Program-made: the position numbers and the translations under genes | UHGV virus genome: UHGV-2003109 | DNA length: 40,932 bases | Strand: one strand, 5' to 3' | From: a virus | Notes under the pieces: generated by a model | Seen by the model: only the letters and a program-made list of their open reading frames with translations | The model's database searches: none | What the model was told of the DNA's origin: nothing | In this document: positions 23,450 to 40,932 of the stretch, in pieces | How positions within the stretch are numbered: position 1 is the stretch's first letter | Layout of the letters: each line of letters starts with the position of its first letter

Positions 23450-23656
23450 CTTCATTTTCACTTTTTTAAATCCAACGACAGACGGCTGGCATTTAAGTAT
23501 TGTGAAATATTATCAAATGTAATCATCATTGATTTACAAAAGATACATTTTGCCCCGAAAGGATTCATGTCAGAAACATCAAAAGATGATGTTCTATACT
23601 GGGAACCATGACAACACGGGCATCTAAAGTGAATATGGTTTGTAATATTGTCTACC

Positions 23657-23869
23657 TCAAAGCGCCACTACATGAACAGCGGCAGGACCTTTAGGTCCGT
23701 TCTCAATACCAAATTCAACTTCCTGATTCTCAGTTAATGTTTTGAAATCGTTGCTCTGAATTGCTGAGAAATGGACAAACACATCTTTGCTGCCATCTTT
23801 CGGCGTGATGAAACCAAAACCTTTTTCAGGGTTAAACCATTTCACTAAACCAGTCATTTTGTTAGACAT
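23657..23869 (-). CDS. cspI: Cold shock protein, CspI-like
   Basis: [45 protein letters not shown]... with CSD RNP motifs; ~370 nt upstream leader. Confidence 0.9.
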
Positions 23870-24238
23870 AATTATTACCTTTTGAAGAAATTAGCCCTTG
23901 GGCAGAATGGTCCGAAAAAAAATATCAGAGAGAAAAACCAACAAGGAAATCTCAAGAGGTACAAATAATAAAATTATAACAATGACTGCTTCAGATAAAT
24001 TTGTAACAAACCAGAACACCATTAACGCATGATTAACCACCCATAGCAAGGATTACTTTTGTAAAGAAAAACACAGCAATGAAAGAATAGCTTTATTTAT
24101 TAATAAAACGTGTCATTCTGATTAATGACCTTTTATCTTACCCTTAAGATTTCAGGAATTTTGACTCATGGAAGAGTCCTTTTTATTTAAATTTTACATT
24201 CAGCGATGTAAATGTTCCGATTTAATATTACCCTACAT

Positions 24239-26258: not shown

Positions 26259-26541
26259 TTGAGATTGTGGTGCTTTTTGTGGGAGTCATCCACTTACGCA
26301 CTTTGTTTTGCCATGCCAGCAGTTAGCTTCTGCTGTAAAACTATTCATGCAGCAAACCTGCACTTCACCACAATGGTTAGCATACTTTTCCTGATTAAGA
26401 TTTTGCCAAATATGCTGGCCATTGTTTCATGTATTGGACCTCCTTACTTTTTATTAAAGAGATCCAATATTCACTACTCTGTCCGTATCTCTACTCAGGC
26501 ATCAGCCTTCTTCGTTATCGTATACAGACGAGCGATGAATT

Positions 26542-26757
26542 TTAATCAGTAATGATGACATTTGCTGCTGCAGGACCTTTAGCACCACTCTCTATAGAGA
26601 AGGTAACCTTTTGACCTTCAAATAAGGTTCGATAATTATCATTCTGAATCGCAGAAAAATGCACAAACACATCTTTACTACCATCAACAGGAGAAATAAA
26701 GCCGAAACCTTTATCAGCGTTAAACCATTTTACTAAACCAGTCATTTTATTTGACAT
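26542..26757 (-). CDS. cspB: Cold shock protein, CspB-like
   Basis: [67 protein letters not shown]. Confidence 0.9.
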
Positions 26758-27057
26758 TCTACATTCCTTAACTTGAGCCTTTCGGCATAAATGGTTTGCA
26801 TAACAGAAACGACTTCGTACTTAATTGGAGAGACTCAAAGAAGGAATAAGTGAATAACACCTGAAATGAGAACTGCTTTAGTAAACTACTTCGTATATCG
26901 TCTGTTCTTCAAACCGACGCAATCATTAACGCATAGTTGAACATATGAAGCAATGTTTATTTTAGACATCCAGCCATCTTCAACCCCATCAAAAAACTAT
27001 AGCTTTCTTCAGGAACGTGTGTATAGTGCGCCAAGTTATCAGTATTAAGGAATTTTT

Positions 27058-28457: not shown

Positions 28458-29546
28458 TTACGCCAGTACGCCAGTTGCCAGCGCGCGATCGATAAAACGA
28501 AATATCAGCTCCAGTTGGGAGCCATACTTCTCTTCAAATGCCACTGTATCCGTATGCAGCTCGTTGTGATGCTTTCTGCACAAAGGCAACACAAAGAGAT
28601 CATGTGCTTTTGTTCCCATTCCGCCCTGCCCGTGACCAATCAGATGATGCGGATCGTCGGCTGGCATACCGCAGCAAGCACACGGCTGTGTCTTAACCCA
28701 ACGTGTGTATTTCTCCTTAACCCAGCGGCGACGTTTAGGCAGCTTCATGAAAGATTCCGGAGACTCTGGATCAACGGTGATGATTACCACCGTCTTTTCC
28801 TGTGGTGGTTTTTGTTGCTGGTGGGCGTAAGGCAACGGTGCAAGATTTTTTGTGCGTTGTTTCAATATGCTGGTGGCGGTCTGCTCTCCCGGTACGATGT
28901 CGCTTTCGCGGTACACCGAGCAGATTTTTTCCGCTGGTAATCCCAGCGAACGACGCGATACAGCCTCAGGTAGTGCATCCACCACCTGATTGCAGACCGC
29001 CCACCAGGATAATTCAGCCAAAGATAATTCCCGCTCCTGCGTACCGCTTATTGCGTGACGGATGACGTCAATCACCCATGCTGTCAGATTTTGTTGAGCA
29101 AGCAGCTCCAGTGATTCCGATGTCTGGTCACGCAGTTGGTTGTCGCAGTGCCAGCACAACACCATTGCGCCGGTACCATAACGGTGAATGACTGTTTCAG
29201 TGTGATGGTAATCGCCATTAGGCCACTGGCAGGATGTAACATGACGTAATAGCCAGTCGGACAATGCGCCAACGCCGCCAGCAGCACGAATCACCCGTTC
29301 GTTACTAAAAAACGGCAGCAATGTTTTGTCTTCCGCCAGCGGCTGGCGAACGGCAGGAACGACTCCGGATGGCAGATTACGCATGCTTTTTGGTTCCGGT
29401 TCCACCAGCACTCGAGGATTATGAAATATCTGTATGGATTCACGGCCCGGCTTAAGGACCACCAGCCCAAGCTCAGGCACCAGAACAGGTCTAAGTAATA
29501 CCCGCACGTTACCTCCAGATCCGTTGCTGGAAAGTGCGGGACGCAC
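28458..29546 (-). CDS. YdfU-like protein (DUF968) with C-terminal HNH-like motif
   Basis: C-terminal CACCG...DPHHLIGHG...CRKHHNELH; Qin ydfU position next to Q; start uncertain (overlaps rem in track). Confidence 0.75.
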   Translation of the reverse strand: MRPALSSNGSGGNVRVLLRPVLVPELGLVVLKPGRESIQIFHNPRVLVEPEPKSMRNLPSGVVPAVRQPLAEDKTLLPFFSNERVIRAAGGVGALSDWLLRHVTSCQWPNGDYHHTETVIHRYGTGAMVLCWHCDNQLRDQTSESLELLAQQNLTAWVIDVIRHAISGTQERELSLAELSWWAVCNQVVDALPEAVSRRSLGLPAEKICSVYRESDIVPGEQTATSILKQRTKNLAPLPYAHQQQKPPQEKTVVIITVDPESPESFMKLPKRRRWVKEKYTRWVKTQPCACCGMPADDPHHLIGHGQGGMGTKAHDLFVLPLCRKHHNELHTDTVAFEEKYGSQLELIFRFIDRALATGVLA

Positions 29547-29787
29547 GTGGTGGGCGTTCGGAATAAGGCAGCCTGACAGAGATTATCCAGTGCCGATAGT
29601 CGAGACTGAGAGCTTTCTTAACCTCGAACCCGCGCCTGCGGTAAGAATGAATCAGCCATTCGGCCTGTTCTGCAGTGCATGGAGGGTGCTGGAACCATTC
29701 AGACTTGAATGCGTGAGAATACCGCCCGTGCGTGCAGGCAAGAACGGGCGAATTATCAGAATTGTAATATTTTGCGTTGCGTGCCAT
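29509..29787 (-). CDS. Small protein, Qin Rem-like by position
   Basis: ATG at 29787 (MARNAKYYNSD...); lies between the 83-aa ORF and ydfU. Confidence 0.55.
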   Translation of the reverse strand: MARNAKYYNSDNSPVLACTHGRYSHAFKSEWFQHPPCTAEQAEWLIHSYRRRGFEVKKALSLDYRHWIISVRLPYSERPPRASRTFQQRIWR

Positions 29788-29853
29788 CGGTTTTCTCCGG
29801 TGGCACGGTGTTACTCAGCGGGAGTTCAGCCCCGCGCAAGATTGTAGATGAGT

Positions 29854-30105
29854 TTATTCTCCTGAAAAAGCAGAAAAGCCAGCTTTTATTCCGATCTCTT
29901 TCAATGCCTGTAATGAAGTGACAAACTCACCTTCGCGCAAGATAAATCCGTCCGTGACCCGAGCATCCACAAAATTAATTAACGCAGCCCCATTCTTTCG
30001 CAAACACAGAATGCGGTAATGACTAACAATGTTTCCATTTTCAACGCACACAGCATAGAGGCCATCTTCACAAAAAATTTTACGCAGTTCTTCGATGTTC
30101 ATCAT
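29854..30105 (-). CDS. Hypothetical 83-aa protein, no recognisable family
   Basis: Tandem ATG start preceded by GGAAGGA RBS. Confidence 0.5.
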   Translation of the reverse strand: MMNIEELRKIFCEDGLYAVCVENGNIVSHYRILCLRKNGAALINFVDARVTDGFILREGEFVTSLQALKEIGIKAGFSAFSGE

Positions 30106-30233
30106 CAGAATCCTTCCGGATAATTAGCTCTCCCCTTTAAGGGACCATCCCTCTTATCCCTGCGCGCTACTTAAGTATTTTTGATTCTATTCCGGCACCG
30201 TCCAGAACTTCAAACGCGTTGAAAATAAAAACA

Positions 30234-30254
30234 AAAACCCGCCGAAGCGGGTTA
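30234..30254 (-). terminator. Strong intrinsic terminator downstream of hok
   Basis: Minus-strand AACCCGCTTCGGCGGGTT followed by TTTTGTTTTTATTTT. Confidence 0.6.
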
Positions 30255-30321
30255 AGTGCGGGTGCGTTGAGGATGCCTGCCACATCAGAGGTGGCGAGGG
30301 ATTTCTCCCTCGCCGGGTCTC

Positions 30322-30477
30322 TTACTCCTCAGGTTCGTAAGCTGTGAAGACAGCGACCTCCGTCTGCCCGGTTCGGATTCGTACCTCGCAGAGGTCTTTC
30401 CTCGTTACCAGTGCCGTCACTATGACGGTTAAACAGATGACGATCAGGGCGATTAACATCGCCTTTTGCTGCTTCAT
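30322..30477 (-). CDS. hokD: Hok-family type I toxin (HokD/RelF-identical peptide)
   Basis: MKQQKAMLIALIVICLTVIVTALVTRKDLCEVRIRTGQTEVAVFTAYEPEE; AAGGAGA RBS; track ORF is an in-frame N-terminal extension. Confidence 0.9.
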   Translation of the reverse strand: MKQQKAMLIALIVICLTVIVTALVTRKDLCEVRIRTGQTEVAVFTAYEPEE

Positions 30478-30659
30478 AGCCTGCTTCTCCTTGCCTTTCG
30501 GCACGTAAGAGGCTAACCTACATGTGTCTAGCATGAAATTGGCCTCAGATTAATGTTAAGCGTCTTGCAGGACGCGTAATGTTAACTGGGGCTTTTCTCT
30601 ATCTGCCGTTGGTGTTCATGCCCGAGGCAGATAGCCTCAAGCACCCGCAGCAATTTTAC

Positions 30660-30767
30660 TTAACTCCCTCTACCTCGCCAATCAGAAAATCGCTCCATGA
30701 AAGCAACAACAAGACAATAAATTACCAGCACAGCCACAATAGCCAACACACACGTCAGAGCCAACAC
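30660..30767 (-). CDS. Candidate 35-aa hydrophobic small membrane peptide (GTG start), not in ORF track
   Basis: Minus strand AGGAGG-TTATC-GTG TTG GCT...; translation VLALTCVLAIVAVLVIYCLVVAFMERFSDWRGRGS; inverted repeat immediately downstream. Confidence 0.3.
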   Translation of the reverse strand: MLALTCVLAIVAVLVIYCLVVAFMERFSDWRGRGS

Positions 30768-30937
30768 GATAACCTCCTGTATTGGACGTATACCAATACT
30801 GATAAATATGAGACTGCCTCTTCAATGATTCAATACAACTATTGGGTGTTCATCTAAAGAATGAAATGAAGGTAAAGTGTATATTTCAGCTCAGCGAAGT
30901 TAGAACCGTATACTCTCGATACTAACTTCGCATTGTG

Positions 30938-31969
30938 CTACCAATTGATGAAGTCAGTGATGTTATCCAACCTGGTTACAGTAACTTCCCGTCCTAACAA
31001 ATATTGCCAGTATGCCTCACGGTCATTTTGTTCACCTGCACCGCTCCACTCAATTACTCTTAAATGCTTAGAGGTTAGGTAAGGTCGAATAAGCAGGTTA
31101 AGGTGTTCATCGAGGCCAGAATAACCAAACAGTATTATTTCTTCTGATTCAAATAATGCAAACTGCAAATAATCCCAGTACGTAGAAAGAACATTAGATG
31201 CTGCTATAACTGACGGTTTCCTTTTTATATGCGTTAACACTATATGTTCGCTAGGCTCATCCCTGTCAACCGTAAGTTGAGAACGTGAAAGTTTTAAGAC
31301 GGTCTCACCCTGATTAACAAATAGTGGTGAGCCATGCAAATGCAAATAATAACCAAACCTACGATTATATTTCCGTTCGAGCGCTTCGGCGGAAAATCCG
31401 TGGCCTAACATCCCATCAACCAGATACCCATCATACCCGCTGAATATATCATTATCTATGAATGAGTTGTATAATAATTTGTCATAGTTTAATGTCGCAA
31501 TATGAGTGCGTGTATTTTTTACAAATTCCACTAGCGCATTTTCGAATCTTTGCGGCAACCCTTCACCGTAATTATGCAAACTAGTTGCAACTTTGTGGAT
31601 ATAAGTGGCGGTGATTTCGGGGAAGTTTAGTCCATCGTCAGTAAGCCAATGCTCGTTTCCTTCTCCAATTTGCGCAAGAGCCTTACAATATGTGATAGCT
31701 TGGTGAAGGGTATCCAACTCATGTTCCCCTGCCGGTGGACCTTGCCGCTGAAGACAGCGTTCGATAAGTTGCTTATGGACATCGTTTAAGAAATTGGATC
31801 GATGCCAAATTTCTGCCAACGCCCTGTCTAAGGAAAAATGAGCAGGATCTAAAGCCATACCAAGACCGTTGCCGAATATTATTAATTTTCGTGCCATATA
31901 GGAGGACTCATGTTGGAATAATCTTGAGTAGCGTAACGCGATACGCCGCAGTTTGGAAGTAATATACAT
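30938..31969 (-). CDS. SIR2-like (SIR2_2 / DHS-like NAD-binding) stand-alone protein; candidate defence NADase
   Basis: Motifs LIIFGNGLGMALD (Gly-rich N-terminus), ATLNYDKLL (conserved Asn) and YLHLHGS (conserved His), then ILFGYSGLDEH; AT-rich gene; start at 31969 or 31897. Confidence 0.65.
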   Translation of the reverse strand: MYITSKLRRIALRYSRLFQHESSYMARKLIIFGNGLGMALDPAHFSLDRALAEIWHRSNFLNDVHKQLIERCLQRQGPPAGEHELDTLHQAITYCKALAQIGEGNEHWLTDDGLNFPEITATYIHKVATSLHNYGEGLPQRFENALVEFVKNTRTHIATLNYDKLLYNSFIDNDIFSGYDGYLVDGMLGHGFSAEALERKYNRRFGYYLHLHGSPLFVNQGETVLKLSRSQLTVDRDEPSEHIVLTHIKRKPSVIAASNVLSTYWDYLQFALFESEEIILFGYSGLDEHLNLLIRPYLTSKHLRVIEWSGAGEQNDREAYWQYLLGREVTVTRLDNITDFINW

Positions 31970-32313
31970 TCCGTTTGATTACACTCGATATTACAGACTT
32001 GCATGCAAAGAAATCCAAGCTGTTAGGTAAATAGAGACCGCAGAGGAAAGTGATATAGTCTATAAAAACCAACGAATAGCGGCATGTCTTCTGCGACCTC
32101 CATTTACCCAAATAGCACTTATCTAGTAAAATTCAATGATGTATTGCATAGTATTTCGTATGAATTGATATAGATAAGAATCAGTCTTAATTCATTAGCA
32201 AATATTGAAACTCAAAATGTCTGTTTTTGATACAAAGCTGACAACCAGACCAGTTCTAGCCATGTGCCACCAAAATGTCAATTCATATCTGAAGTAATGC
32301 TCTTTAATTTCGT

Positions 32314-32736
32314 TCACCGTGGTAATGTTCGAATATTTCCCTTATAAAATGCCAAAATCCGCTGCATAACTTCGCTCTTCCGGCACTCGCGACAGATTAT
32401 GTTCATACGCCTGTCGTAGCGACGTATTTCTCCGTCAGGTAATGACCAGATAAGGTCCGGATCAACCACAGCAGGTTTCTTCACCTTTGCCCTCGAGAGT
32501 TTTTTGCGGGCGTTTTGCCAGTCCTTACGCGCCTGTTCAGAGGGGAATAACCCGTAGCCGGAGTTGTATACATCGCCACTGGCAACCAGCTCTCTGGCAA
32601 GAACGCTCATCAGATATCTTGTCGCACCTGTTTTAGCTTCCAGTTGCCGTAGCGTCTCACGACCGCTCTGGCGCACGAGTTCCACCACCTGCCCTTTAAT
32701 TTTTTCCCGCTCTTCTTGTGTAAAAACTTTTGCCAC
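32314..32736 (-). CDS. Hypothetical basic protein downstream of the replication gene (possible DNA-binding protein)
   Basis: Non-ATG start with AAGGGGG RBS; Lys/Arg-rich with CRECRK motif; occupies the lambda P position but unlike P. Confidence 0.5.
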   Translation of the reverse strand: MAKVFTQEEREKIKGQVVELVRQSGRETLRQLEAKTGATRYLMSVLARELVASGDVYNSGYGLFPSEQARKDWQNARKKLSRAKVKKPAVVDPDLIWSLPDGEIRRYDRRMNIICRECRKSEVMQRILAFYKGNIRTLPR

Positions 32737-32776
32737 AAGTCCCCCTTAAAATTACCTCATGACCTGAAATCAACAC

Positions 32777-33796
32777 TTATCCCCTGAAACCAGGCGGAAT
32801 TTCTGTATCCGGTTCAGAAATATGATTCACACAACGCTGTACAGACGAACGCCCCAGACGGATGACCAGTTCATCCCATTTTTCACGAAGCTTTGACGGG
32901 CTCATGATGTTTTTTACCCAGAATGGATCTCGCTGTACCCGACCAAACATTTCGCAAATTTGTCTGTGGCTTCTGCCATCCAGCATCCGCATTGTGCGCA
33001 CGTCATTGGCCCAGGCAGTCCAGTTAGGCTCTTTTGGTCGCATGATCTCGCCATCATCACTGGCTGCCTGTTCGTAGAGACCCACGATCCGCCCCCAGAT
33101 CCACTGCGCACACGCCAAATCCTCCCTGCTACCCCACTGGCGTTTTTTCGCACTAAACACAACCGCGTCGGAGTTCCGGGTTAAAAAATCCTGTTCAGTC
33201 GTCTGCGGGTCCGGTTGCGAAGCTTCCGGACGAAAAGTGTTTTTATTCTCTGTAGTAATCTCTGTTGTATTCTCTGTAAGATCATCAGGCCATTTTGACC
33301 CGATGACATTGGGTCGTTTTGAACCAATGGAGCGTTTCATTTTGACCTCTTCCATCGTGTCATTTTGACCTGATGGAGCGGCGCATTTTGAACCGATGGA
33401 TTCGCTCAATTTGCCACCATCTAAAAGCTCGCTCCCATAGTTGATCGTGTAGAAATTGGTCATATCGCGCTTTGATTTATTGAGCTTTTCACAACGCAAA
33501 AGCCCCAGCGTTTTCAGACTTGCAAACGCGCGCTTTAACGTTGACTCTGACCAGAATGGGAACTGTTCCAGCCATTGTTCCGTTGTGTTGTAAATCCAGC
33601 GAACACCATCACATTCCATGCCGGAATTGGTATCTCTCAACCAGTAATGCAACTGCTGCAACACAATGGCTTCATTTAAGCCAATCTTCATCGCAAGCTG
33701 TGTGTTTATAACCAGTGGGCGTTCAGCAAAAAGAAGGCTCATAATTCCATCCAGCTTTTTGTTGGTATTGCTGTCGATACGCAAGTTTGAAAGCAA
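32777..33796 (-). CDS. Replication initiation / replisome organiser protein (lambda O-like role)
   Basis: N-terminal region (…RPLVINTQLAMKIGLNEAIVLQQLHYWL…) typical of phage replisome organisers; iterons embedded in the coding sequence. Confidence 0.8.
   Translation of the reverse strand: MLSNLRIDSNTNKKLDGIMSLLFAERPLVINTQLAMKIGLNEAIVLQQLHYWLRDTNSGMECDGVRWIYNTTEQWLEQFPFWSESTLKRAFASLKTLGLLRCEKLNKSKRDMTNFYTINYGSELLDGGKLSESIGSKCAAPSGQNDTMEEVKMKRSIGSKRPNVIGSKWPDDLTENTTEITTENKNTFRPEASQPDPQTTEQDFLTRNSDAVVFSAKKRQWGSREDLACAQWIWGRIVGLYEQAASDDGEIMRPKEPNWTAWANDVRTMRMLDGRSHRQICEMFGRVQRDPFWVKNIMSPSKLREKWDELVIRLGRSSVQRCVNHISEPDTEIPPGFRG
33291..33420. repeat. Origin iterons: five to six ~22-bp direct repeats (core CATTTTGACC / CATTTTGAACC) inside the O-like gene
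   Basis: Direct reading: cattttgacccgatg, cgttttgaaccaatgg, cattttgacctc, cattttgacctgatgg, cattttgaaccgatgg, caatttgccacc. Confidence 0.7.
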
Positions 33797-34244
33797 TTGC
33801 TTTTTCTATAAGTTCGTCAGTTTCACGATCCACTACGGCAGGATCAGCAAAAAGCAGTCCGGACTCCACCACATCGCCATATTCTTTGTTTAACCCGGCG
33901 ATCATGTACGTGATGCTTTTTCCGTCACTAATTTCACGATACAACCTGAAATCATTAATCCGGATAGCCTCCATAATTGCAGGCACTAGCGCCGTGAACT
34001 TTTCACGCTTATCCCTGGTGTCGATAGCCTTCCAGCGTTCGAATATCTTCACTCGATTAACGCCAAGCGCTCGCTGATCAACCGCGCCACCTTCATCTGT
34101 GACACGCTGAACATCGATGTTCGGGCGCTCTTTCAAAGCCCAGAATGCTTCAGTGATTAATATCGTCGCCTGCTCCTGTGTCATTCCTGGTCGACATATC
34201 CAGGCATCCAGAGCCTCACGAGCCTGTTCAGGAGTGATTTTCAT
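33723..34244 (-). CDS. YdaT-like protein (cII position)
   Basis: 173 aa; motifs ...KIFERWKAIDTRDKREKFTALVPAIMEAI... recalled as YdaT-family; lies between the cro-like gene and the replication gene. Confidence 0.55.
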   Translation of the reverse strand: MKITPEQAREALDAWICRPGMTQEQATILITEAFWALKERPNIDVQRVTDEGGAVDQRALGVNRVKIFERWKAIDTRDKREKFTALVPAIMEAIRINDFRLYREISDGKSITYMIAGLNKEYGDVVESGLLFADPAVVDRETDELIEKAIAFKLAYRQQYQQKAGWNYEPSFC

Positions 34245-34455
34245 TGTTCAACCGCCCCGCCCGCTTCGTCTTACGATATTCGTCATAAACCTTGGGATCA
34301 TACTGAAGCTCGCCGCCAGATGCCTCCTGTAGACGCATCGCGCGACCTTCAGGAACCAGCTCTTGCCATTGAGAAACAGCAGATGGGTCAACGCCAGCAG
34401 CTTTCGCTACTTTGGCTTTCGTACCGTAAAAATTAATTACGTCTGATTTAAACAT
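34228..34455 (-). CDS. dicC: Cro-like regulator DicC (YdaS family)
   Basis: MFKSDVINFYGTKAKVAKAAGV...VPEGRAMRLQEASGGELQYDPKVYDEY; divergent from dicA. Confidence 0.8.
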   Translation of the reverse strand: MFKSDVINFYGTKAKVAKAAGVDPSAVSQWQELVPEGRAMRLQEASGGELQYDPKVYDEYRKTKRAGRLNNENHS

Positions 34456-34468
34456 CGCACCTCCAATA

Positions 34469-34482
34469 TTGAGTTTTCTCAA
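34469..34482. promoter_or_regulatory. Palindromic operator TTGAGTTTTCTCAA in the dicA-dicC divergent promoter region
   Basis: Perfect 14-bp palindrome in the 77-bp intergenic region between the dicC and dicA starts. Confidence 0.5.
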
Positions 34483-34532
34483 TGCTAATCACTCAAGGAA
34501 TCTCAAGTCAAGGGTTATTAAGATATCTAAAT

Positions 34533-34940
34533 ATGAACGAGAAAACTTTAGGTCAACGCATTAGAGAAAGACGTAAGCAGGTAGGCTTAAGTCAAAACGG
34601 TTTAAGCAAAGCTGCTGGCGTATCTGGCTCATCAATTTCATTATGGGAAAGTGACCATACAGCCCCGCGCGGGCAAAATTTGCATCGCCTCGCCGAGGTA
34701 TTGCAATGTTCACCAACCTGGATACTGTTTGGCGACGAGGACAAAACACCAGCTCCCCCTGTTTCACTCGATAGTGCCTTAGACTTATCGGAAGATGAGT
34801 TAGAGATGCTGCGTTTGTATCGCGCACTTCCTAAATCAGAGCAACAAGCACAACTCAGCGAACTCCGCGCCCGCGTTGAGAATTTTAATCGCCTGTTCAC
34901 CGAGCTATTAGAGGCTCGCAAACGCAACAAGCATCAATAA
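34533..34940 (+). CDS. dicA: XRE-family HTH repressor DicA (CI-like immunity repressor)
   Basis: …LGQRIRERRKQVGLSQNGLSKAAGVSGSSISLWESDHTAPRGQNLHRLAEVLQCSPTWILFGDEDK… closely resembles E. coli DicA. Confidence 0.9.
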   Translation: MNEKTLGQRIRERRKQVGLSQNGLSKAAGVSGSSISLWESDHTAPRGQNLHRLAEVLQCSPTWILFGDEDKTPAPPVSLDSALDLSEDELEMLRLYRALPKSEQQAQLSELRARVENFNRLFTELLEARKRNKHQ

Positions 34941-35004
34941 TCATCCCTTCACAAAATTTTAAAGCCTTACATTTCAATGTATTGGCTTTATCTTGCGCCA
35001 ATAC

Positions 35005-35060
35005 TTGAGTTTTCTCATCAAAAAACCTTGACGAAAAATAATGAGAAAACTAAATTATCT
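35005..35060 (+). promoter_or_regulatory. Candidate promoter of the ydfA-dicF-dicB operon flanked by operator half-sites
   Basis: TTGAGTTTTCTCA (35005-35018), -35 TTGACG (35028-35033), TGAGAAAACTAA (35042-35053) overlapping a TAAATT -10. Confidence 0.45.
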
Positions 35061-35132
35061 CCATCAAGACACCGCACGGTGTTCTCAGCAAACAGTTCCG
35101 CTACCCCAGCGTTAAGGGGAAATAAGGTCAGC

Positions 35133-35288
35133 ATGGATACTATCGATCTTGGCAACAACGAATCTCTGGTGTACGGCGTGTTTCCAAACCAGGACGGCAC
35201 GTTCACCGCAATGACGTATACCAAAAGCAAAACGTTTAAAACCGAAAATGGTGCCCGTCGCTGGCTGGAAAGAAACTCAGGTGAGTGA
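35133..35288 (+). CDS. ydfA: YdfA-like small protein (DUF1391)
   Basis: MDTIDLGNNESLVYGVFPNQDGTFTAMTYTKSKTFKTENGARRWLERNSGE. Confidence 0.8.
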   Translation: MDTIDLGNNESLVYGVFPNQDGTFTAMTYTKSKTFKTENGARRWLERNSGE

Positions 35289-35289
35289 T

Positions 35290-35865
35290 ATGGATTTCGA
35301 CACAATCATGGAAAAGGCTTACGAAGAATACTTCGAAGGCCTTGCCGAAGGCGAAGAAGCTCTCAGCTTCAGTGAGTTTAAACAGGCACTCAGAATAAGA
35401 ATGTGCTCTCACAATGACGCGGAGCACAAATATGAGAAGCAAAATCAGACCGCAGAAAATTTTGTTCTGGAACCCGGAGAAACGCTTTTCAAAATTCCCG
35501 TTACGTGCCCCATTTGCGGTTTTACATCAGAAGAACTTGACGACTCCTGTAACAATCAGGAAACAACCAAGTATGTCGAAGATGATACCGAGTGCGCACG
35601 AAGAACGATTATATCCACGAGTCCAAACTCCAGGACCAATAAATCTCACTTTGAGAGGGTGATTAATCCACTCCCCCAAACCAATAAAAAAGATGCCGGA
35701 GGACAAAAAACCCAATGGAACAACGGGATATCTGTCAAAAAAAGACGTTCCATTAAAGACAAACAACGCAGCGCCAACAACTGTAAGCGCTTTATACCAG
35801 TAATCAATTTTCATGTTCTTAAGCGGATTTATTGGTGGTTGCGACATTGCTTAATGAATCCTTAA
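35290..35865 (+). CDS. YdfB-like N-terminus fused to a longer hypothetical protein
   Basis: MDFDTIMEKAYEEYFEGLAEGEEALSFSEFKQALRIRMCSHN... continues to 192 aa; AGGTGAG RBS. Confidence 0.5.
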   Translation: MDFDTIMEKAYEEYFEGLAEGEEALSFSEFKQALRIRMCSHNDAEHKYEKQNQTAENFVLEPGETLFKIPVTCPICGFTSEELDDSCNNQETTKYVEDDTECARRTIISTSPNSRTNKSHFERVINPLPQTNKKDAGGQKTQWNNGISVKKRRSIKDKQRSANNCKRFIPVINFHVLKRIYWWLRHCLMNP

Positions 35866-36124
35866 AACTGTGGTGATTTTAAGGATACCACCTCGCCTGA
35901 CGTGGTTAAAAGCAGGCACACAACACGAAAGCGCACGGCGAAGTTCGTCTCACTGTACGGTGTCGTTAAATTTAATTCGACCGTGCGCTTCCGGTTGTGG
36001 CAACCCGCGAAATGGCGCGGCGGTAAGTATGGCGGGGTTATTCCTTCCCCGTTGAGGACACCGGGTTGTCAGGTTGACCATACGCTTAAGTGACAACCCC
36101 GCTGCAACGCCCTCTGTTATCAAT

Positions 36125-36180
36125 TTTCTGGTGACGTTTGGCGGTATCAGTTTTACTCCGTGACTGCTCTGCCGCCGTTT
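36125..36180 (+). ncRNA. dicF: DicF small regulatory RNA
   Basis: tttctggtgacgtttggcggtatcagttttactccgtgactgctctgccgcc followed by a T-run; matches E. coli DicF; between ydfB-like and dicB. Confidence 0.8.
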
Positions 36181-36351
36181 TTAAAGTGAATTTTGTGATG
36201 CGGTGAATGCGGCTGAGCGCACGCGGAACAGTTAAAACCAAAAACAGTGTTATGGGTGGATTCTCTGTATCCGACGTTAATTGTTAACTGGTTAACGTCA
36301 CCTGGAGGCACCAGGCACTGCATCACAAAATTCATTGTTGAGGACGCGATA

Positions 36352-36540
36352 ATGAAAACGTTATTACCAAACGTTAATACGTCTGAAGGTTGTTTTGAAA
36401 TTGGTGTCACTATCAGTAACCCAGTATTTACTGAAGATGCCATTAACAAGAGAAAACAAGAACGGGAGCTATTAAATAAAGTATGCATTCTTTCAATGCT
36501 GGCCCGTTTACGTCCGATACAAAAAGGATGCTGGCAATGA
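36352..36540 (+). CDS. dicB: Cell division inhibitor DicB
   Basis: MKTLLPNVNTSEGCFEIGVTISNPVFTEDAINKRKQERELLNKVCILSMLARLRPIQKGCWQ. Confidence 0.9.
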   Translation: MKTLLPNVNTSEGCFEIGVTISNPVFTEDAINKRKQERELLNKVCILSMLARLRPIQKGCWQ

Positions 36541-36728
36541 ATACAGCATTTGCACTTGTTCTGACAGTTTTTCTTGTTTCCGGAGAACCAGTTGATATTG
36601 CAGTCAGTGTTCACAGGACAATGCAGGAGTGTGTGACTGCAGCAACCGAACAGAAAATTCCCGGTAACTGTTACCCTGTCGATAAAGTTATTCACCAGGA
36701 TAATAACGAAATCCCGGCAGGTCTTTAA
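36537..36728 (+). CDS. ydfD: YdfD small lysis-associated membrane protein
   Basis: MNTAFALVLTVFLVSGEPVDIAVSVHRTMQECVTAATEQKIPGNCYPVDKVIHQDNNEIPAGL; ATGA overlap with dicB. Confidence 0.85.
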   Translation: MNTAFALVLTVFLVSGEPVDIAVSVHRTMQECVTAATEQKIPGNCYPVDKVIHQDNNEIPAGL

Positions 36729-36821
36729 AACAGTTCCGTAATAAACATCCGATTTCATTCTTATATGCCAGCAATGGCAGGGATTTGTTCACCCTTAAAT
36801 CTGTCATGAGGTTAAAACAAA

Positions 36822-39293
36822 ATGAGTAAAGTCTTTATTTGCGCCGCCATTCCGGACGAACAGGCAATAAAGGAAGAAGGTGCAATCGCTGTAGCCACTG
36901 CCATTGAAGCCGGTGATGAACGTCGCGCCCGCGCAAAATTTCACTGGCAATTCCTGGAACATTATCCGGTTGCTCAGGACTGCGCTTATAAATTTCTTGT
37001 TTGCGAGGATAAACCCGGTATACCCCGCCCTGCCCTCGATTCCTGGGATGCTGAATATATGCAGGAAAACCGCTGGGATGAGGAGTCTGCTTCCTTTGTC
37101 CCGGTTGAGACTGAATCAGATCCGATGAACGTCACTTTTGACAAGCTGGCCCCTGAAGTACAGAACGCTGTCATGGTTAAGTTCGACACATGTGAAAACA
37201 TCACCGTTGATATGGTGATTAGCGCGCAGGAATTGTTGCAGGAAGACATGGCAACATTCGACGGACATATCGTTGAAGCGTTGATGAAAATGCCAGAAGT
37301 TAACGCCATGTATCCGGAGCTTAAGCTGCATGCCATCGGGTGGGTTAAACATAAATGTAATCCTGGAGCTAAATGGCCCGAAATTCAGGCAGAGATGCGC
37401 ATCTGGAAAAAACGTCGCGAAAATGAACGCAAGGAAACCGGAAAATACACGTCTGTTGTTGATCTCGCCCGCGCCAGAGCCAATCAACAGCACACTGAAA
37501 ATTCAACAGGAAAAATCAACCCGGTCATTGCTGCCACTCATCGCGAATACAAGCAGACATGGAAAACACTGGATGACGAACTGGCCTACGCTCTCTGGCC
37601 TGGTGATGTGGATGCCGGAAACATTGACGGCAGCATCCATCGCTGGGCAAAAAATGAAGTTATCGACAACGACCGCGAAGACTGGAAGCGTATCTCGGCA
37701 TCAATGCGCAAACAGCCTGATGCCCTTCGCTACGACCGCCAGACTATTTTTGGCCTTGTCCGTGAACGTCCGATCGACATTCACAAAGACCCTGTGGCAC
37801 TGAACAAATACATTACTAAATACCTGACTACAAAGGGCGTGTTTGAAGATGAAGGAACAAATCAGAGCGCAACTGATACTCTCTCGTCGCCAGTACCAGA
37901 AACTGATGCAGTGGAAACGGCAATTCCGGGCAACGAAAAAACTGAATGCAAAGTGGAAGTCGAACCATCTGTAGAGCGTGAGGGGCCGTTCTACTTCCTC
38001 TTTACCGACAAGGATGGCGAAAAATACGGTCGCGCAAACAAACTTTCTGGTCTGGATAAGGCGCTGGCTGCCGGGGCTACTGAAATCACGAAAGAAGAAT
38101 ATTTCGCCCGCAAAAACGGTACATACTCAGGTTCACAACAAAATACTGGTGCATCTGACACGACCGCACAACCAGAGCCGGTAAAAATTACCGCTGACGA
38201 AGTAAACAAAATTATGCAGGCAGCCAATATCAGCCAGCCTGACGCCAATCAGTTGCTTGCTGTATCACGTGGTGAATTTGTTGCAGGGATTAGCGATCCG
38301 AATGATCCGAAATGGGTGAAGGGGATTGAAACCCGCGATTCAGTGAACCAGAACCAGCAAGAAACGGAACAGAACGACCAGAAAGCGGAACAAAACAGCC
38401 CAAATGCGTTACAAAACGAGCCAGAAACGAAACAACCTGAGCCAGTAGCGCAACAGGAAGCGGAAAAAATCTGCACCGCCTGCGGTCAGACCGGCGGCGG
38501 CAACTGCCCTGAATGTGGTGCGGTGATGGGCGACGCAACATACCAGGAAACATTCGATGACAAGAACCAGGTTGAAGTTCAGGAAGACGATTCGGAGAAA
38601 ATGGAAGGCGCTGAACATCCACACAAGGAGAATGCTGGCAGCGCTCAGGACCACGCCAGCGATAGTGAAACTGGCGAGACGGCAGATCCCTTAATTACGG
38701 TGAACAGTCATCACGTTATCACATCCACCAGCAGGACGTGTGACCATCTAATGATCGACCTTGAAACCATGGGAAAAAATCCTGATGCCCCGATTATCTC
38801 AATAGGCGCAATATTTTTCGATCCACAAACCGGAGATATGGGACCGGAATTTAGCAAGACCATAGATCTGAATACTGCTGGCGGAGTCATTGATCGTGAC
38901 GTCATTAAATGGTGGCTGAAGCAATCACGTGAAGCGCAGTCTGCCATTATGACCGATGAAATCCCGTTAGATGATGCACTGTTACAATTGCGGGAATTTA
39001 TCGACGAAAACTCCGGTGAATTTTTTGTTCAGGTCTGGGGAAATGGAGCCAACTTCGACAACACGATTTTGCGCCGTTCATACGAACGGCAGGGGATCCC
39101 CTGCCCGTGGCGTTACTACAACGATCGCGATGTACGCACAATCGTTGAGCTGGGGAAAGCCATAGACTTCGATGCCAGAACGGCTATTCCATTCGAAGGT
39201 GAGCGGCATAATGCACTTGATGACGCCCGTTACCAGGCAAAATACGTTTCAGTTATCTGGCAAAAACTGATCCCGAGTCAGGCTGATTCTTAA
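36822..39293 (+). CDS. Large recombination-associated exonuclease (YdfE-like) with internal zinc ribbon and C-terminal DEDDh 3'-5' exonuclease domain
   Basis: C-terminal motifs DLETMG, NGANFD, HNALDDARY; CTACGQ...CPECG zinc ribbon; lambda exo/RecE position; uninterrupted 823-aa ORF. Confidence 0.8.
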   Translation: MSKVFICAAIPDEQAIKEEGAIAVATAIEAGDERRARAKFHWQFLEHYPVAQDCAYKFLVCEDKPGIPRPALDSWDAEYMQENRWDEESASFVPVETESDPMNVTFDKLAPEVQNAVMVKFDTCENITVDMVISAQELLQEDMATFDGHIVEALMKMPEVNAMYPELKLHAIGWVKHKCNPGAKWPEIQAEMRIWKKRRENERKETGKYTSVVDLARARANQQHTENSTGKINPVIAATHREYKQTWKTLDDELAYALWPGDVDAGNIDGSIHRWAKNEVIDNDREDWKRISASMRKQPDALRYDRQTIFGLVRERPIDIHKDPVALNKYITKYLTTKGVFEDEGTNQSATDTLSSPVPETDAVETAIPGNEKTECKVEVEPSVEREGPFYFLFTDKDGEKYGRANKLSGLDKALAAGATEITKEEYFARKNGTYSGSQQNTGASDTTAQPEPVKITADEVNKIMQAANISQPDANQLLAVSRGEFVAGISDPNDPKWVKGIETRDSVNQNQQETEQNDQKAEQNSPNALQNEPETKQPEPVAQQEAEKICTACGQTGGGNCPECGAVMGDATYQETFDDKNQVEVQEDDSEKMEGAEHPHKENAGSAQDHASDSETGETADPLITVNSHHVITSTSRTCDHLMIDLETMGKNPDAPIISIGAIFFDPQTGDMGPEFSKTIDLNTAGGVIDRDVIKWWLKQSREAQSAIMTDEIPLDDALLQLREFIDENSGEFFVQVWGNGANFDNTILRRSYERQGIPCPWRYYNDRDVRTIVELGKAIDFDARTAIPFEGERHNALDDARYQAKYVSVIWQKLIPSQADS

Positions 39294-39365
39294 TGTTCAA
39301 CTGTCGCCGGTTGTGACTGGTATTCTGCAACCGGCGCTCGTCTGATGTAAGAGATAAAGAAATCG

Positions 39366-39617
39366 ATGAGCGAAGTAATCATGATTGTCTCTCCCGGCAA
39401 ATGGGTATCCGAAGAGCAGTTAATTGCGCTGAAAGGAATAAAAAAAGGTACGTTAAAAAAGGCCCGGGAAAAATCGTTTATGGAAGGAAGGGAATATAAG
39501 CATGTCGCTCATGACGGTATGCCATGGGATAACAGTCCATGCTTTTACAACCTGGAAGAAATTGATCGCTGGATTGAGCGCCAGGCATCAGCGAGACCAA
39601 GACGTCATCTTACTTGA
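39366..39617 (+). CDS. xis: Excisionase-like protein
   Basis: 83-aa ORF immediately upstream of the integrase; ...EGREYKHVAHDGMPWDN... resembles lambdoid prophage excisionase-like proteins. Confidence 0.65.
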   Translation: MSEVIMIVSPGKWVSEEQLIALKGIKKGTLKKAREKSFMEGREYKHVAHDGMPWDNSPCFYNLEEIDRWIERQASARPRRHLT

Positions 39618-39651
39618 CTAAAAGCCACACTAACTAATGAGAGAGGTTGAA

Positions 39652-40932
39652 ATGAAATATCCGACAGGCGTGGAAAACCATGGAGGGAAATTACGTATCT
39701 GGTTTGTTTATAAAGGCGTAAGAGTCAGGGAAAATCTGGGGGTTCCTGACACAGCAAAAAACAGGCGCGTTGCAGGTGAACTACGCGCCTCTGTTTGTTA
39801 CGCAATAAAAACTGGTGTTTTCGACTATGCAAAACAGTTTCCCTCCTCACGCAATCTGGAAAAATTTGGTGAGGCCCGACAAGATTTAACCATAAAAGAA
39901 CTGGCTGAAAAATTTCTGGCACTGAAAGAAACTGAAGTCGCCAAAACATCACTCAACACATACCGTGCCGTCATCAAAAATATCCTGAGCATAATCGGTG
40001 AAAAAAATCTTGCCTCATCGATTAATAAAGAAAAATTACTGGAGGTTCGTAAAGAGTTACTGACTGGATACCAGATCCCCAAAAGTAACTATATTGTTAC
40101 ACAACCAGGGAGATCGGCTGTAACTGTAAATAATTACATGACAAATCTTAACGCCGTGTTCCAGTTTGGTGTTGATAACGGTTACCTAGCAGATAATCCG
40201 TTTAAGGGGATCTCGCCATTAAAGGAATCAAGAACCATTCCGGATCCTCTTTCGCGGGAAGAATTTATCCGTCTTATCGATGCGTGCAGAAATCAGCAAG
40301 CAAAAAATTTATGGTGTGTTTCTGTTTATACTGGCGTTCGCCCTGGTGAGCTGTGTGCACTTGGATGGGAGGACATAGATCTGAAAAATGGAACAATGAT
40401 GATCAGGAGAAATTTAGCAAAAGACCGTTTCACGGTACCAAAAACACAGGCGGGAACCAATCGGGTCATTCATCTTATTAAGCCAGCAATCGACGCTCTC
40501 CGGAGTCAGATGACATTAACGAGACTGAGCAAAGAGCATATCATTGATGTTCACCTCAGAGAGTATGGCAGAACAGAAAAACAAAAATGCACCTTTGTTT
40601 TTCAACCTGAAGTGTCAGCGAGAGTAAAAAATTATGGTGACCATTTTACCGTTGACTCAATAAGGCAGATGTGGGACGCAGCGATAAAACGTGCCGGACT
40701 CCGCCATCGAAAATCATATCAGTCGAGACATACTTATGCCTGCTGGTCGCTGACAGCTGGTGCTAACCCGGCATTTATAGCAAACCAGATGGGCCATGCA
40801 GATGCGCAAATGGTATTTCAGGTATACGGAAAATGGATGTCTGAAAACAATAATGCACAGGTAGCTTTGTTAAATACACAGTTAAGCGAGTTTGCCCCAA
40901 CCATGCCCCATAACGAAGCAATGAAAAATTAA
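39652..40932 (+). CDS. int: Tyrosine site-specific integrase
   Basis: C-terminal catalytic region with R...HxxR...Y signature (RHRKSYQSRHTYA...); GAGAGG RBS; stop at the window end. Confidence 0.9.
   Translation: MKYPTGVENHGGKLRIWFVYKGVRVRENLGVPDTAKNRRVAGELRASVCYAIKTGVFDYAKQFPSSRNLEKFGEARQDLTIKELAEKFLALKETEVAKTSLNTYRAVIKNILSIIGEKNLASSINKEKLLEVRKELLTGYQIPKSNYIVTQPGRSAVTVNNYMTNLNAVFQFGVDNGYLADNPFKGISPLKESRTIPDPLSREEFIRLIDACRNQQAKNLWCVSVYTGVRPGELCALGWEDIDLKNGTMMIRRNLAKDRFTVPKTQAGTNRVIHLIKPAIDALRSQMTLTRLSKEHIIDVHLREYGRTEKQKCTFVFQPEVSARVKNYGDHFTVDSIRQMWDAAIKRAGLRHRKSYQSRHTYACWSLTAGANPAFIANQMGHADAQMVFQVYGKWMSENNNAQVALLNTQLSEFAPTMPHNEAMKN

What the first reader, a model, noticed from the sequence alone, without database searches (positions are those of the whole stretch)
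30290..30640. hokD-identical toxin without relBE, embedded in a highly structured region
The 51-aa peptide is identical to my recollection of HokD/RelF, which in E. coli K-12 Qin is the last gene of relB-relE-hokD. Here no relB or relE ORF is present upstream, and the toxin has its own AAGGAGA RBS. There is a 3' palindrome (GGCGAGGGATTTCTCCCTCGCC, 30293-30314) and a strong terminator downstream, plus a 9-bp-stem inverted repeat (CTATCTGCC...GGCAGATAG, 30598-30634) upstream. Control may therefore be by mRNA folding or an unrecognised antisense RNA rather than by read-through from relBE.
Basis: partly seen in the sequence, partly recalled or inferred. Interest (0 to 1): 0.55.

Follow-up and report, generated by a model that had tools for sequence, protein, structure and literature searches.

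The report
Ordinary intact hokD/mok/sok toxin-antitoxin locus
This is a complete, conventional hok/mok/sok RNA-controlled toxin-antitoxin module in a Qin-like prophage: the ancestral form of the hokD locus that E. coli K-12 lost when relBE inserted, already described and present in most E. coli genomes.

Summary
On the minus strand, a 51-aa ORF (30477..30322) is 51/51 identical to K-12 HokD. No relB or relE exists anywhere in the window.

The arrangement is not unusual. The 170 nt upstream of hok match Rfam RF01794 (hok/sok leader) over the full model at 115 bits (threshold 59). All canonical parts are present:
- a hok promoter;
- a tac 5' end that pairs with an fbi element just before the terminator;
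- a ucb/dcb pairing that covers the mok ribosome-binding site;
- an in-frame mok ORF;
- an antisense Sok gene (30526-30596, +) with its own promoter.

The locus is 94% identical to hokW-mokW-sokW of phage Sp5, a tested type I toxin-antitoxin system. Across 37 hok loci from at least 8 genera the helices stay paired and show compensatory changes.

K-12 similarity begins only 14 nt upstream of the hok ATG, because relBE replaced the leader there. An intact hokD-type leader (at least 80% of this 199-nt probe) occurs in 4110 of 5426 complete E. coli genomes. The K-12 relE-hokD junction occurs in 1167.

It is the textbook mechanism, already known.

The parts
30653..30681 (-). hok/mok mRNA promoter: -35 TTGGCG (30681-30676), 17-nt spacer, -10 TAAAAT (30658-30653)
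   Evidence: Consensus scan. It places +1 at about 30646, exactly where the Rfam model match begins. The block ATTGGCGAGGTA...GTTAAGTA[A/G]AAT is conserved in L056, L057 and L058 and in Sp5.
30230..30646 (-). Predicted full-length hok mRNA (about 415 nt), from GGGUGCUUGAGG to the terminator U-tract
   Evidence: The 5' end is inferred from the promoter and the start of the Rfam model. The 3' end is inferred from the terminator. Fold z-score is -8.66. The ends were not mapped experimentally.
30635..30646 (-). tac (translational activator) element: the first 12 nt of the mRNA, GGGUGCUUGAGG
   Evidence: In the MFE of the full-length RNA it pairs with 30272-30260. In the 3'-truncated RNA it pairs with AAGCCCC at 30594-30588, as in the Rfam consensus structure.
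30599..30634 (-).
   Evidence: It is 94.3% paired across 37 homologous loci, and 3 of its pairs change on both sides (helix 2).
30588..30594 (-). ucb (upstream complementary box), AAGCCCC
   Evidence: In the full-length fold, the stretch 30597-30586 that contains this box pairs with the mok ribosome-binding region 30548-30535. In the truncated fold it pairs with tac. AGCCCC is invariant or nearly so in the 37-locus alignment.
30535..30548 (-). dcb region, containing the mok Shine-Dalgarno GAGG (30546-30543)
   Evidence: It is paired with ucb in the full-length MFE. GAGG is invariant in all 37 loci (G112 A113 G114 G115).
30322..30534 (-). mok reading frame (70 codons; ATG 30534), in frame with hok and overlapping it
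   Evidence: ORF list. An ATG stands at this column in 35 of 37 loci. The equivalent 213-nt ORF is annotated mokW in VT2-Sakai. It matches PHROG 251 'MokW-like host killing' at 7.7e-33.
30491..30519 (+). Sok promoter: -35 TTGCCT (30491-30496), 17-nt spacer, -10 TAACCT (30514-30519)
   Evidence: Read. It aligns with TTGCGC-17-TATCCT of the R1-type locus L003. The spacer is 17 nt in 37 of 37 loci, the -35 is TTGCCT or TTGACC, and the -10 is mostly TAAYCT. The simple consensus scan did not pick it up. It is identical to the Sp5 sokW promoter region.
30526..30596 (+). Sok antisense RNA gene (71 nt): an open 5' stretch opposite the mok start region (complement of the mok AUG at its nt 7-9), then a long hairpin and a U-rich end
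   Evidence: Coordinates were transferred without gaps from the annotated sokW misc_RNA of AP000422. A 74-nt stretch (30527-30600) folds at -30.3 kcal/mol against -15.5 +/- 2.8 for shuffles, z = -5.33.
30486..30492 (-). hok Shine-Dalgarno AAGGAGA
   Evidence: It is conserved as CAAGGAGA in nearly all loci.
30322..30477 (-). hok CDS (HokD, 51 aa)
   Evidence: RefSeq annotates the same ORF as hokD in strain S30.
30336..30339 (-). TACG motif at the Tyr47 codon (published TadA A-to-I editing site, Tyr to Cys)
   Evidence: TACGAA is invariant in 37 of 37 loci. Editing of K-12 hokD at this position is reported in PMC5630033 and PMC12214031.
30293..30314 (-).
   Evidence: It is 95-97% paired across 37 loci with compensatory changes (helices 12-13). 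The processing role is inferred, not shown.
30260..30272 (-). fbi (fold-back inhibition) element CCUCAACGCACCC, complementary to tac with a 1-nt bulge
   Evidence: The helix is 88.1% paired in 37 loci. Pair 43/470 is U-A in 22 loci and C-G in 12 (helix 1).
30226..30253 (-). Intrinsic terminator: 7-bp stem, 4-nt loop, T run

Best explanation
The region is a complete hok/mok/sok type I toxin-antitoxin locus: the intact, ancestral form of hokD. It sits in the early-right (nin-like) region of a Qin-like lambdoid prophage.

Proposed mechanism, by homology to plasmid R1 hok/sok and phage Sp5 hokW/sokW:
1. The promoter at 30681-30653 makes a stable mRNA of about 415 nt. Its first 12 nt (tac) pair with fbi just before the terminator. 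Meanwhile ucb covers the mok Shine-Dalgarno. In this state the full-length RNA is neither translated nor bound by Sok.
2. Slow 3' trimming back to the hairpin after the stop codon removes fbi. tac then pairs with ucb, and the mok start region is exposed in a hairpin.
3. While the short-lived 71-nt Sok RNA is present, it pairs with the mok start region. This blocks mok translation and therefore the coupled hok translation, and the duplex is cut by RNase III.
4. If Sok synthesis stops or Sok decays (loss of the element, a transcription block, or prophage induction), mok and hok are translated. The 51-aa Hok peptide inserts into the inner membrane and depolarises the cell.

Shown here: every sequence and structure element, their conservation and covariation, and near-identity to a tested locus. 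Inferred: the transcript ends, the processing step, Sok expression, toxicity in this host, and the biological role.
For: - Rfam RF01794 matches 30646..30472 over the full model, 115.3 bits against a gathering score of 59, E=1e-25.
- Hok matches Pfam PF01848 at 3e-23 and is 51/51 identical to K-12 HokD.
- An in-frame mok ORF is present. Its GAGG ribosome-binding site is invariant and its ATG is present in 35 of 37 homologous loci.
- The promoter scan places +1 at the start of the Rfam match.
- The full-length MFE pairs nt 1-12 with 30272-30260 and pairs ucb with the mok ribosome-binding site (z = -8.66).
- RNAs truncated at the 3' end refold with tac paired to ucb, as in the Rfam consensus.
- In 37 loci from Escherichia, Shigella, Kluyvera, Citrobacter, Pseudocitrobacter, Photorhabdus, Pantoea and an IncF plasmid, 79% of cells are paired, against 39-46% when partners are slid. 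There are 29 pairs with changes on both sides, reached by 3 of 500 shuffles. The tac/fbi helix is 88% paired, with U-A replaced by C-G.
- The Sok promoter spacing of 17 nt is invariant. The Sok fold has z = -5.33.
- The locus is 94% identical over 471 aligned columns to the annotated hokW/mokW/sokW of VT2-Sakai. That locus was shown to be a type I toxin-antitoxin system with a Sok-promoter-dependent antitoxin (PMC8621323).
- HokD is toxic when overexpressed (bioRxiv 10.1101/2025.08.07.668861).
Against: - Nothing in the sequence contradicts membership.
- The simple consensus scan did not flag the Sok promoter, whose -10 is TAACCT.
- MFE predictions for a 414-nt RNA are uncertain in the coding part; the MFE has a frequency of 0.0007 in the ensemble.
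- Function is not guaranteed. As quoted in bioRxiv 10.1101/2025.08.07.668861, Pedersen and Gerdes 1999 found that the native chromosomal loci they tested (hokA, hokB, hokC) neither mediated post-segregational killing nor responded to rifampicin.
- The covariation counts use a structure derived from the window's own sequence, which inflates the paired percentage relative to the slid controls.
Confidence: 0.92

Rival explanations
1. The locus is structurally intact but physiologically silent. It keeps all hok/mok/sok elements, yet in its chromosomal prophage setting it does not kill on loss and plays no measurable role, like the native chromosomal hok loci tested in the 1990s.
For: [quoted passage not shown] The Tyr47 codon needs TadA editing to give the second cysteine, and K-12 hokD mRNA is edited at only about 6% (PMC12214031).
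Against: The near-identical hokW-sokW locus is active as a toxin-antitoxin pair and aids lysis after mitomycin C (PMC8621323). The regulatory helices are kept by compensatory changes across genera, which argues for selection on the RNA mechanism. The intact leader is kept in 4110 of 5426 E. coli genomes.
Confidence: 0.2
2. Hok is expressed mainly by read-through from the upstream prophage early-right operon (replication genes, DUF977, SIR2). This would parallel co-transcription with relBE in K-12, with the local promoter and Sok being secondary.
For: hok points the same way as the cro-like, O-like, DUF977, SIR2, rem, ydfU and Q genes. Only one terminator-like site was found in 30100-31000, and it lies downstream of hok. 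HokW rises after prophage induction by mitomycin C (PMC8621323).
Against: The locus has its own conserved promoter placed exactly at the start of the conserved leader. A read-through transcript would carry a 5' extension, which may alter the tac-based switching that relies on the free 5' end. The conserved tac/fbi covariation only makes sense for a transcript that starts at about 30646.
Confidence: 0.12
3. One reading: a stand-alone Hok toxin translated from its own AAGGAGA site and controlled by a new, unrecognised RNA mechanism unrelated to mok/sok.
For: AAGGAGA lies 8 nt before the ATG. RefSeq annotates only the hokD CDS at such loci, with no mok or sok feature, so the locus looks bare in annotation.
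Against: The full-model Rfam match to the hok/sok leader, the mok ORF and its ribosome-binding site, the Sok promoter and RNA collinear with annotated sokW, and tac/fbi and ucb/dcb pairings as in the family. K-12 hokD has the same AAGGAGA.
Confidence: 0.02

Closest known systems
hokW-mokW-sokW of Stx2 phage Sp5 / VT2-Sakai / 933W (experimentally characterised type I toxin-antitoxin system, PMC8621323)
   Same: 94% nucleotide identity over promoter, leader, CDS and 3' UTR up to fbi. mok length is the same (70 codons), Sok length and position are the same (71 nt), the Sok promoter is identical and the tac and fbi sequences are identical. Both lie in lambdoid prophages.
   Different: Hok differs at the C-terminus (TAYEPEE here against VDYESEK in HokW, read). 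There are 7 substitutions in the leader. The terminator region differs. The position in the phage genome also differs: here it lies between the replication genes and Q, whereas in Sp5 it lies near the right prophage end.
relB-relE-hokD (relBEF) of E. coli K-12 cryptic prophage Qin
   Same: The Hok protein is identical. The DNA is 99.5% identical from 14 nt upstream of the hok ATG through rem and into ydfU (window 30491-29400). The prophage backbone is the same (rem, ydfU, Q-type antiterminator, dicB/DicF, csp genes).
   Different: K-12 lacks everything upstream of window position 30491: the hok promoter, tac, ucb, the mok start, the Sok RNA and most of the Sok promoter. relBE occupies that place. 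K-12 is the derived, truncated state (PMC6379469, PMC12214031). Its junction is present in 1167 of 5426 genomes, against 4110 with an intact hokD-type leader.
hok/sok (parB) of plasmid R1 and IncF plasmids
   Same: The architecture is the same element for element: a 5' GCUUGAGGCU..CUGCC hairpin, AGCCCC (ucb), the GAGG mok ribosome-binding site, the AGCCUCUUAC...CAAGGAGAAG block that carries the Sok promoter on the other strand, a hairpin after the stop codon, fbi complementary to the 5' end, and a terminator.
   Different: Identity is only about 60% in the leader and 51% in the CDS. The setting is a plasmid rather than a prophage. In the classical R1 sequence mok is out of frame with hok (my recollection); here it is in frame. 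Frame varies within the family: 25 of 37 loci are in frame.
Chromosomal hokC/mokC/sokC (gef) type loci
   Same: The organisation is the same and mok is in frame. Leader identity is 73-75% and CDS identity 85-86%.
   Different: It is a different paralogue, with a shorter Sok hairpin region (an 18-nt gap in the alignment) and a different chromosomal site.

Membership tests
[quoted passage not shown] | Toxin ORF of about 50 aa in the Hok/Gef family, with an N-terminal membrane helix and a conserved Cys | tested here: met
   Pfam PF01848 at E=3e-23, 81.6 bits against a cut-off of 22. 51/51 identity to K-12 HokD. PHROG 251 at 7.7e-33.
[quoted passage not shown] | Conserved structured leader of about 170 nt upstream of hok | tested here: met
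   RF01794 full-model match (positions 1-157 of 157), 115.3 bits against a gathering score of 59, E=1e-25, at 30646..30472 on the hok-sense strand.
[quoted passage not shown] | mok reading frame that starts in the leader with its own Shine-Dalgarno and overlaps hok | tested here: met
   ATG at 30534, GAGG at 30546-30543, 70 codons. GAGG is invariant, and the ATG is present in 35 of 37 homologous loci.
[quoted passage not shown] | Cis-encoded antisense Sok RNA with its own promoter, complementary to the mok translation-initiation region | tested here: met
   At sequence level only. The promoter is TTGCCT-17-TAACCT with an invariant 17-nt spacer. The 71-nt gene is collinear with annotated sokW. 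It has an open 5' stretch followed by a hairpin, z = -5.33. Expression was not tested.
[quoted passage not shown] | Long-range tac/fbi pairing between the mRNA 5' end and a site just upstream of the terminator | tested here: met
   12 bp with a 1-nt bulge in the MFE and the centroid. The helix is 88.1% paired in 37 loci, with U-A (22 loci) replaced by C-G (12 loci) at one pair.
[quoted passage not shown] | ucb/dcb pairing that hides the mok ribosome-binding site in the full-length RNA, switching to tac/ucb after 3' truncation | tested here: met
   By prediction only. The full-length MFE pairs 30597-30586 with 30548-30535. RNAs ending at 30285 or 30280 pair GGG.GCUU with AAGCCCC, as in the Rfam consensus. 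Truncation at 30290 gave a different 5' hairpin, so the outcome depends on the chosen end.
[quoted passage not shown] | Hok toxicity, neutralisation by Sok, and killing when Sok decays (post-segregational killing, rifampicin activation) | not testable with these tools
   Literature only. HokD is toxic on overexpression (bioRxiv 10.1101/2025.08.07.668861). The 94%-identical hokW-sokW behaves as a toxin-antitoxin pair (PMC8621323).
relBE-hokD (relBEF) operon arrangement of K-12 Qin | relB and relE immediately upstream of hokD and co-transcribed with it | tested here: not met
   No RelB or RelE similarity in any frame of the window and no relBE DNA. K-12 similarity stops at 30491.

The most novel reading that the evidence does not exclude
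The most novel reading not excluded has two parts. First, the hok/sok module may mark the downstream edge of a variable cargo slot in Qin-like prophages: SIR2 here, a deaminase, a methyltransferase, or relBE-ydfV-flxA elsewhere. It might cooperate with that cargo in phage defence or prophage addiction. Second, the conserved 29-35-aa hydrophobic ORF with a strong AGGAGG site just upstream of the hok promoter (30767..30660) might be an undescribed small membrane peptide linked to the module.
Probability: 0.07. Interest if true: 0.4.

Novelty: already known. Interest (0 to 1): 0.08.

Why it matters
It adds little new biology. The finding shows that the K-12 reference arrangement (relBE-hokD) is the derived one, and that the usual state of hokD is a self-contained hok/mok/sok module. 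That is already in the literature.

Its practical value is for annotation. RefSeq marks only the hokD CDS at such loci and omits mok and Sok. A reader who knows only K-12 can therefore mistake an ordinary locus for an orphan toxin. The window does give a clean natural example of the intact hokD locus for anyone studying why K-12 lost it.

Tried and rejected
- I searched the first 50 kb of VT2-Sakai (AP000422) for the locus and found nothing. It lies in the last 15 kb.
- I tried to read the Fozo et al. review (PMC2593563); it is not held.
- A literature search for 'sokD' returned only unrelated words, so the name is not in use in the held library.
- PADLOC has no model that hits Hok/Mok, and NCBIfam hits were below the curated cut-offs. 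I relied on Pfam, PHROGs and Rfam instead.
- The simple promoter scan did not find the Sok promoter. I located it by alignment to R1-type and Sp5 loci.
- I tested whether the 35-aa ORF at 30767..30660 shows a coding signature. Substitutions fall 7:8:8 over the three codon positions in four sequences, so there is no evidence of purifying selection. I left it as an aside.
- I considered that the two palindromes might be independent regulatory sites such as operators. I rejected this because both are conserved helices of the hok mRNA with compensatory changes.
- I did not use the large protein-database searches or structure prediction. The answer did not depend on them.

Full report
**What is in the sequence**

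The feature lies on the minus strand. The ORF 30477..30322 encodes a 51-aa peptide. It matches Pfam HOK_GEF at E=3e-23 and is identical at 51 of 51 residues to HokD of E. coli K-12 MG1655. The K-12 protein was taken from the annotated K-12 locus fetched.

AAGGAGA sits 8 nt upstream of the ATG. The palindrome at 30293-30314 is a 9-bp stem directly after the stop codon. A terminator-like hairpin with a T run lies at 30253..30236. The inverted repeat CTATCTGCC/GGCAGATAG pairs 30634-30626 with 30607-30599.

Neither RelB nor RelE protein, nor K-12 relBE DNA, finds anything but chance matches in the whole window. The 414-nt stretch is far more structured than shuffled sequence (z = -8.66).

**What it is**

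A scan of the whole window against Rfam gives a full-length match to RF01794, the hok/sok leader family. It covers 30646..30472 at 115.3 bits against a gathering score of 59. The match lies on the hok-sense strand. It begins GGGUGCUUGAGG and ends at the hok AUG, so it describes the conserved hok mRNA leader. The Sok gene lies on the complementary strand within that leader.

A sigma-70-like promoter (TTGGCG-17-TAAAAT, 30681..30653) sits so that transcription would start at about 30646, exactly where the Rfam match begins. An in-frame ATG at 30534, preceded by GAGG at 30546-30543, opens a 70-codon mok frame.

On the plus strand, TTGCCT-17-TAACCT (30491-30519) aligns with the Sok promoter of an R1-type plasmid locus, TTGCGC-17-TATCCT.

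The GenBank record of phage VT2-Sakai (Sp5) annotates mokW, hokW and a 71-nt sokW RNA. The window aligns to that locus at 94% identity, with no gap between the mRNA start and the hok ATG. The sokW coordinates therefore transfer directly to window 30526-30596. A slightly longer 74-nt stretch (30527-30600) folds into an open 5' stretch, a long hairpin and a U-rich end (z = -5.33). This is the classical Sok shape.

**RNA switch**

- **Full-length RNA.** In the minimum-energy and centroid folds, the first 12 nt (tac, 30646-30635) pair with 30272-30260 (fbi), just before the terminator. The AAGCCCC box (ucb) pairs with the mok Shine-Dalgarno region (dcb).
- **Trimmed RNA.** When the 3' end is trimmed to 30285 or 30280, tac pairs with ucb instead and the mok start sits in a separate hairpin. 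This is the structure encoded in the Rfam consensus.
- **Alternative end.** Trimming to 30290 gave a different local 5' hairpin. It resembles the metastable 5' hairpin described for R1; that comparison rests on my own recollection.

These are predictions, but they reproduce the published R1 mechanism element by element.

**Comparative test**

One scan of species-representative genomes with the Hok peptide returned 53 loci. I aligned 36 non-redundant intact loci plus the window. They come from Escherichia, Shigella, Kluyvera, Citrobacter, Pseudocitrobacter, Photorhabdus, Pantoea, unnamed Enterobacteriaceae and an IncF plasmid. I then counted the non-coding helices of the window's fold across the alignment.

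| Measure | Result |
|---|---|
| Cells paired, whole structure | 79% (39-46% when partners are slid) |
| Pairs with changes on both sides | 29 (reached by 3 of 500 shuffles) |
| tac/fbi helix | 88% paired; U-A in 22 loci, C-G in 12 |
| 5' hairpin | 94% paired |
| Hairpin after the stop codon | 95-97% paired |

The structure was derived from one of the aligned sequences, which inflates the paired percentage. The compensatory changes are independent of that bias.

Other family features are also conserved:
- The Sok promoter spacer is 17 nt in all 37 loci.
- The mok GAGG is invariant.
- The mok ATG is present in 35 of 37 loci.

**Relation to K-12**

BLAST of the window against the K-12 Qin segment shows 99.5% identity from window 30491 downstream through hok, rem and into ydfU, and nothing upstream of that point. 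The break lies 14 nt before the hok ATG, inside the Sok -35 hexamer.

K-12 therefore lacks the hok promoter, tac, ucb, the mok start and Sok, and has relBE in their place. Published work says the same. K-12 hokD is inactivated by genomic rearrangement that removed components of the canonical system (PMC12214031, citing Pedersen and Gerdes 1999; also PMC7232551). The ancestral ~70-codon ORF was cut to 51 codons by integration of relBE (PMC6379469, citing Ramisetty and Santhosh 2016).

**How common it is** (5426 complete E. coli genomes)

| Arrangement | Genomes |
|---|---|
| At least 80% of the 199-nt promoter-plus-leader probe (includes close paralogues at 90-95% identity) | 4110 |
| K-12 relE-hokD junction | 1167 |
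| The wider block 30150-30950 | 898 |

The same unit occurs in 79 phage records, where it is annotated MokW, Hok or 'host killer'. Hok matches PHROG 251, 'MokW-like host killing'. [quoted passage not shown]

**Function**

The 94%-identical hokW-sokW pair was shown to be a toxin-antitoxin pair. The antitoxin depends on the sokW promoter and partly on RNase III and Hfq. The locus assists lysis after mitomycin C induction (PMC8621323). HokD itself is toxic when overexpressed (bioRxiv 10.1101/2025.08.07.668861).

Against assuming activity, the native chromosomal hokA, hokB and hokC loci did not give post-segregational killing in the classical study, as quoted in the same preprint. I therefore rate membership at about 0.92. 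I leave about 0.2 for the view that the locus, though intact, is physiologically quiet.

**Context**

From 28458 to the right end, the window is 97.7% identical to E. coli S30. That region is annotated as a Qin-like prophage. In order it carries a Q antiterminator, ydfU, a hypothetical gene, rem, hokD, a SIR2 family protein, a DUF977 gene, an O-like gene, ydaT, the cro/cI-type switch, dicB, ydfD, an exonuclease, xis and int. hok points the same way as the early-right genes.

**Verdict**

The locus is nevertheless the conventional, well-described hok/mok/sok arrangement. K-12 is the exception, not this window. It is already known and of low interest.

Noticed in passing
window 30660-30767 (-): A 35-aa hydrophobic ORF (VLALTCVLAIVAVLVIYCLVVAFMERFSDWRGRGS; GTG start with AGGAGG 6 nt upstream) ends inside the hok promoter. 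Homologous loci L056, L057 and L058 keep a 29-aa version with the same ribosome-binding site. The window has an 11-nt deletion that removes their stop codon. Substitutions fall 7:8:8 over the three codon positions, so there is no sign of purifying selection. It has no real match in Pfam, PHROGs, PADLOC or NCBIfam (only a 15-bit NCBIfam hit, far below its cut-off), and RefSeq does not annotate it.
   Followed up: partly
window 30938-31969 (-), and the slot between DUF977 (32314-32736) and hok: A single SIR2-like gene (Pfam SIR2_2 at 7.5e-6; weak PADLOC hits to Aga_SIR2 and PDC-S21) occupies a slot whose content varies between otherwise similar prophages. L058 has a hypothetical gene plus a deaminase there, phage HannyBb has a methyltransferase plus a hypothetical gene, and K-12 has relBE-ydfV-flxA. 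It looks like a cargo or defence hotspot bounded by the hok module.
   Followed up: partly
window 30334-30339 (-): TACGAA at the Tyr47 codon of hok is invariant in all 37 aligned hok loci, although the surrounding CDS is only 51-99% identical. This fits the published TadA A-to-I editing site that recodes Tyr to Cys in hokC, hokD and hokE (PMC5630033, PMC12214031).
   Followed up: partly
L028 (Kluyvera sp. CHPC 1.2972), L007 and L044 (E. coli), just upstream of the hok ATG at locus position 701: The K-12-type sequence that follows relE (TTTCGCACCGAAGGTGACAC...TTGACAG) is also fused, at nearly the same point, to a different hok type in Kluyvera; that Hok is only 70% identical to HokD. Either the relBE-hok junction is old, or the hok part downstream of it has been exchanged by recombination.
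   Followed up: no
L018 (Acinetobacter idrijaensis, 275-nt contig), L023 (Xanthomonas pisi, 431-nt contig), L056 (Candidatus Scatousia MAG): Very short contigs in assemblies of unrelated taxa encode HokD at 96-100% identity, and the two with upstream sequence (L023, L056) also carry the E. coli-type leader. This is most simply explained by E. coli or phage DNA contamination of those assemblies.
   Followed up: no
window 23630-24015 (-), 26526-26918 (-), 36126-36177 (+): Two cspA-thermoregulator matches (112.8 and 158.8 bits), which are cold-shock gene leaders typical of Qin-like prophages, and a DicF sRNA match (72.5 bits) upstream of dicB.
   Followed up: no
window 1-28457: The left 28 kb is not collinear with E. 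coli S30, although 28458-40932 is 97.7% identical to it. In this window the region left of the Q gene holds csp leaders and larger ORFs, for example 700 aa at 18597-20699. These were not identified. The prophage backbone is therefore mosaic.
   Followed up: no
hok loci in RefSeq E. coli genomes (e.g. L002/L059, hits H84-H113): PGAP annotates only the hokD CDS. The leader, mok and Sok carry no feature ('none' under the match for nearly every listed leader hit). This is what makes an ordinary locus look like an orphan toxin.
   Followed up: yes
alignment A1, mok start to hok start: The mok frame relative to hok is not fixed in the family. The distance is 57 nt (in frame) in 25 of 37 loci, 58 nt in 9, 56 nt in 2 and 55 nt in 1. 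What is conserved is the mok start and its ribosome-binding site, not the Mok peptide.
   Followed up: partly
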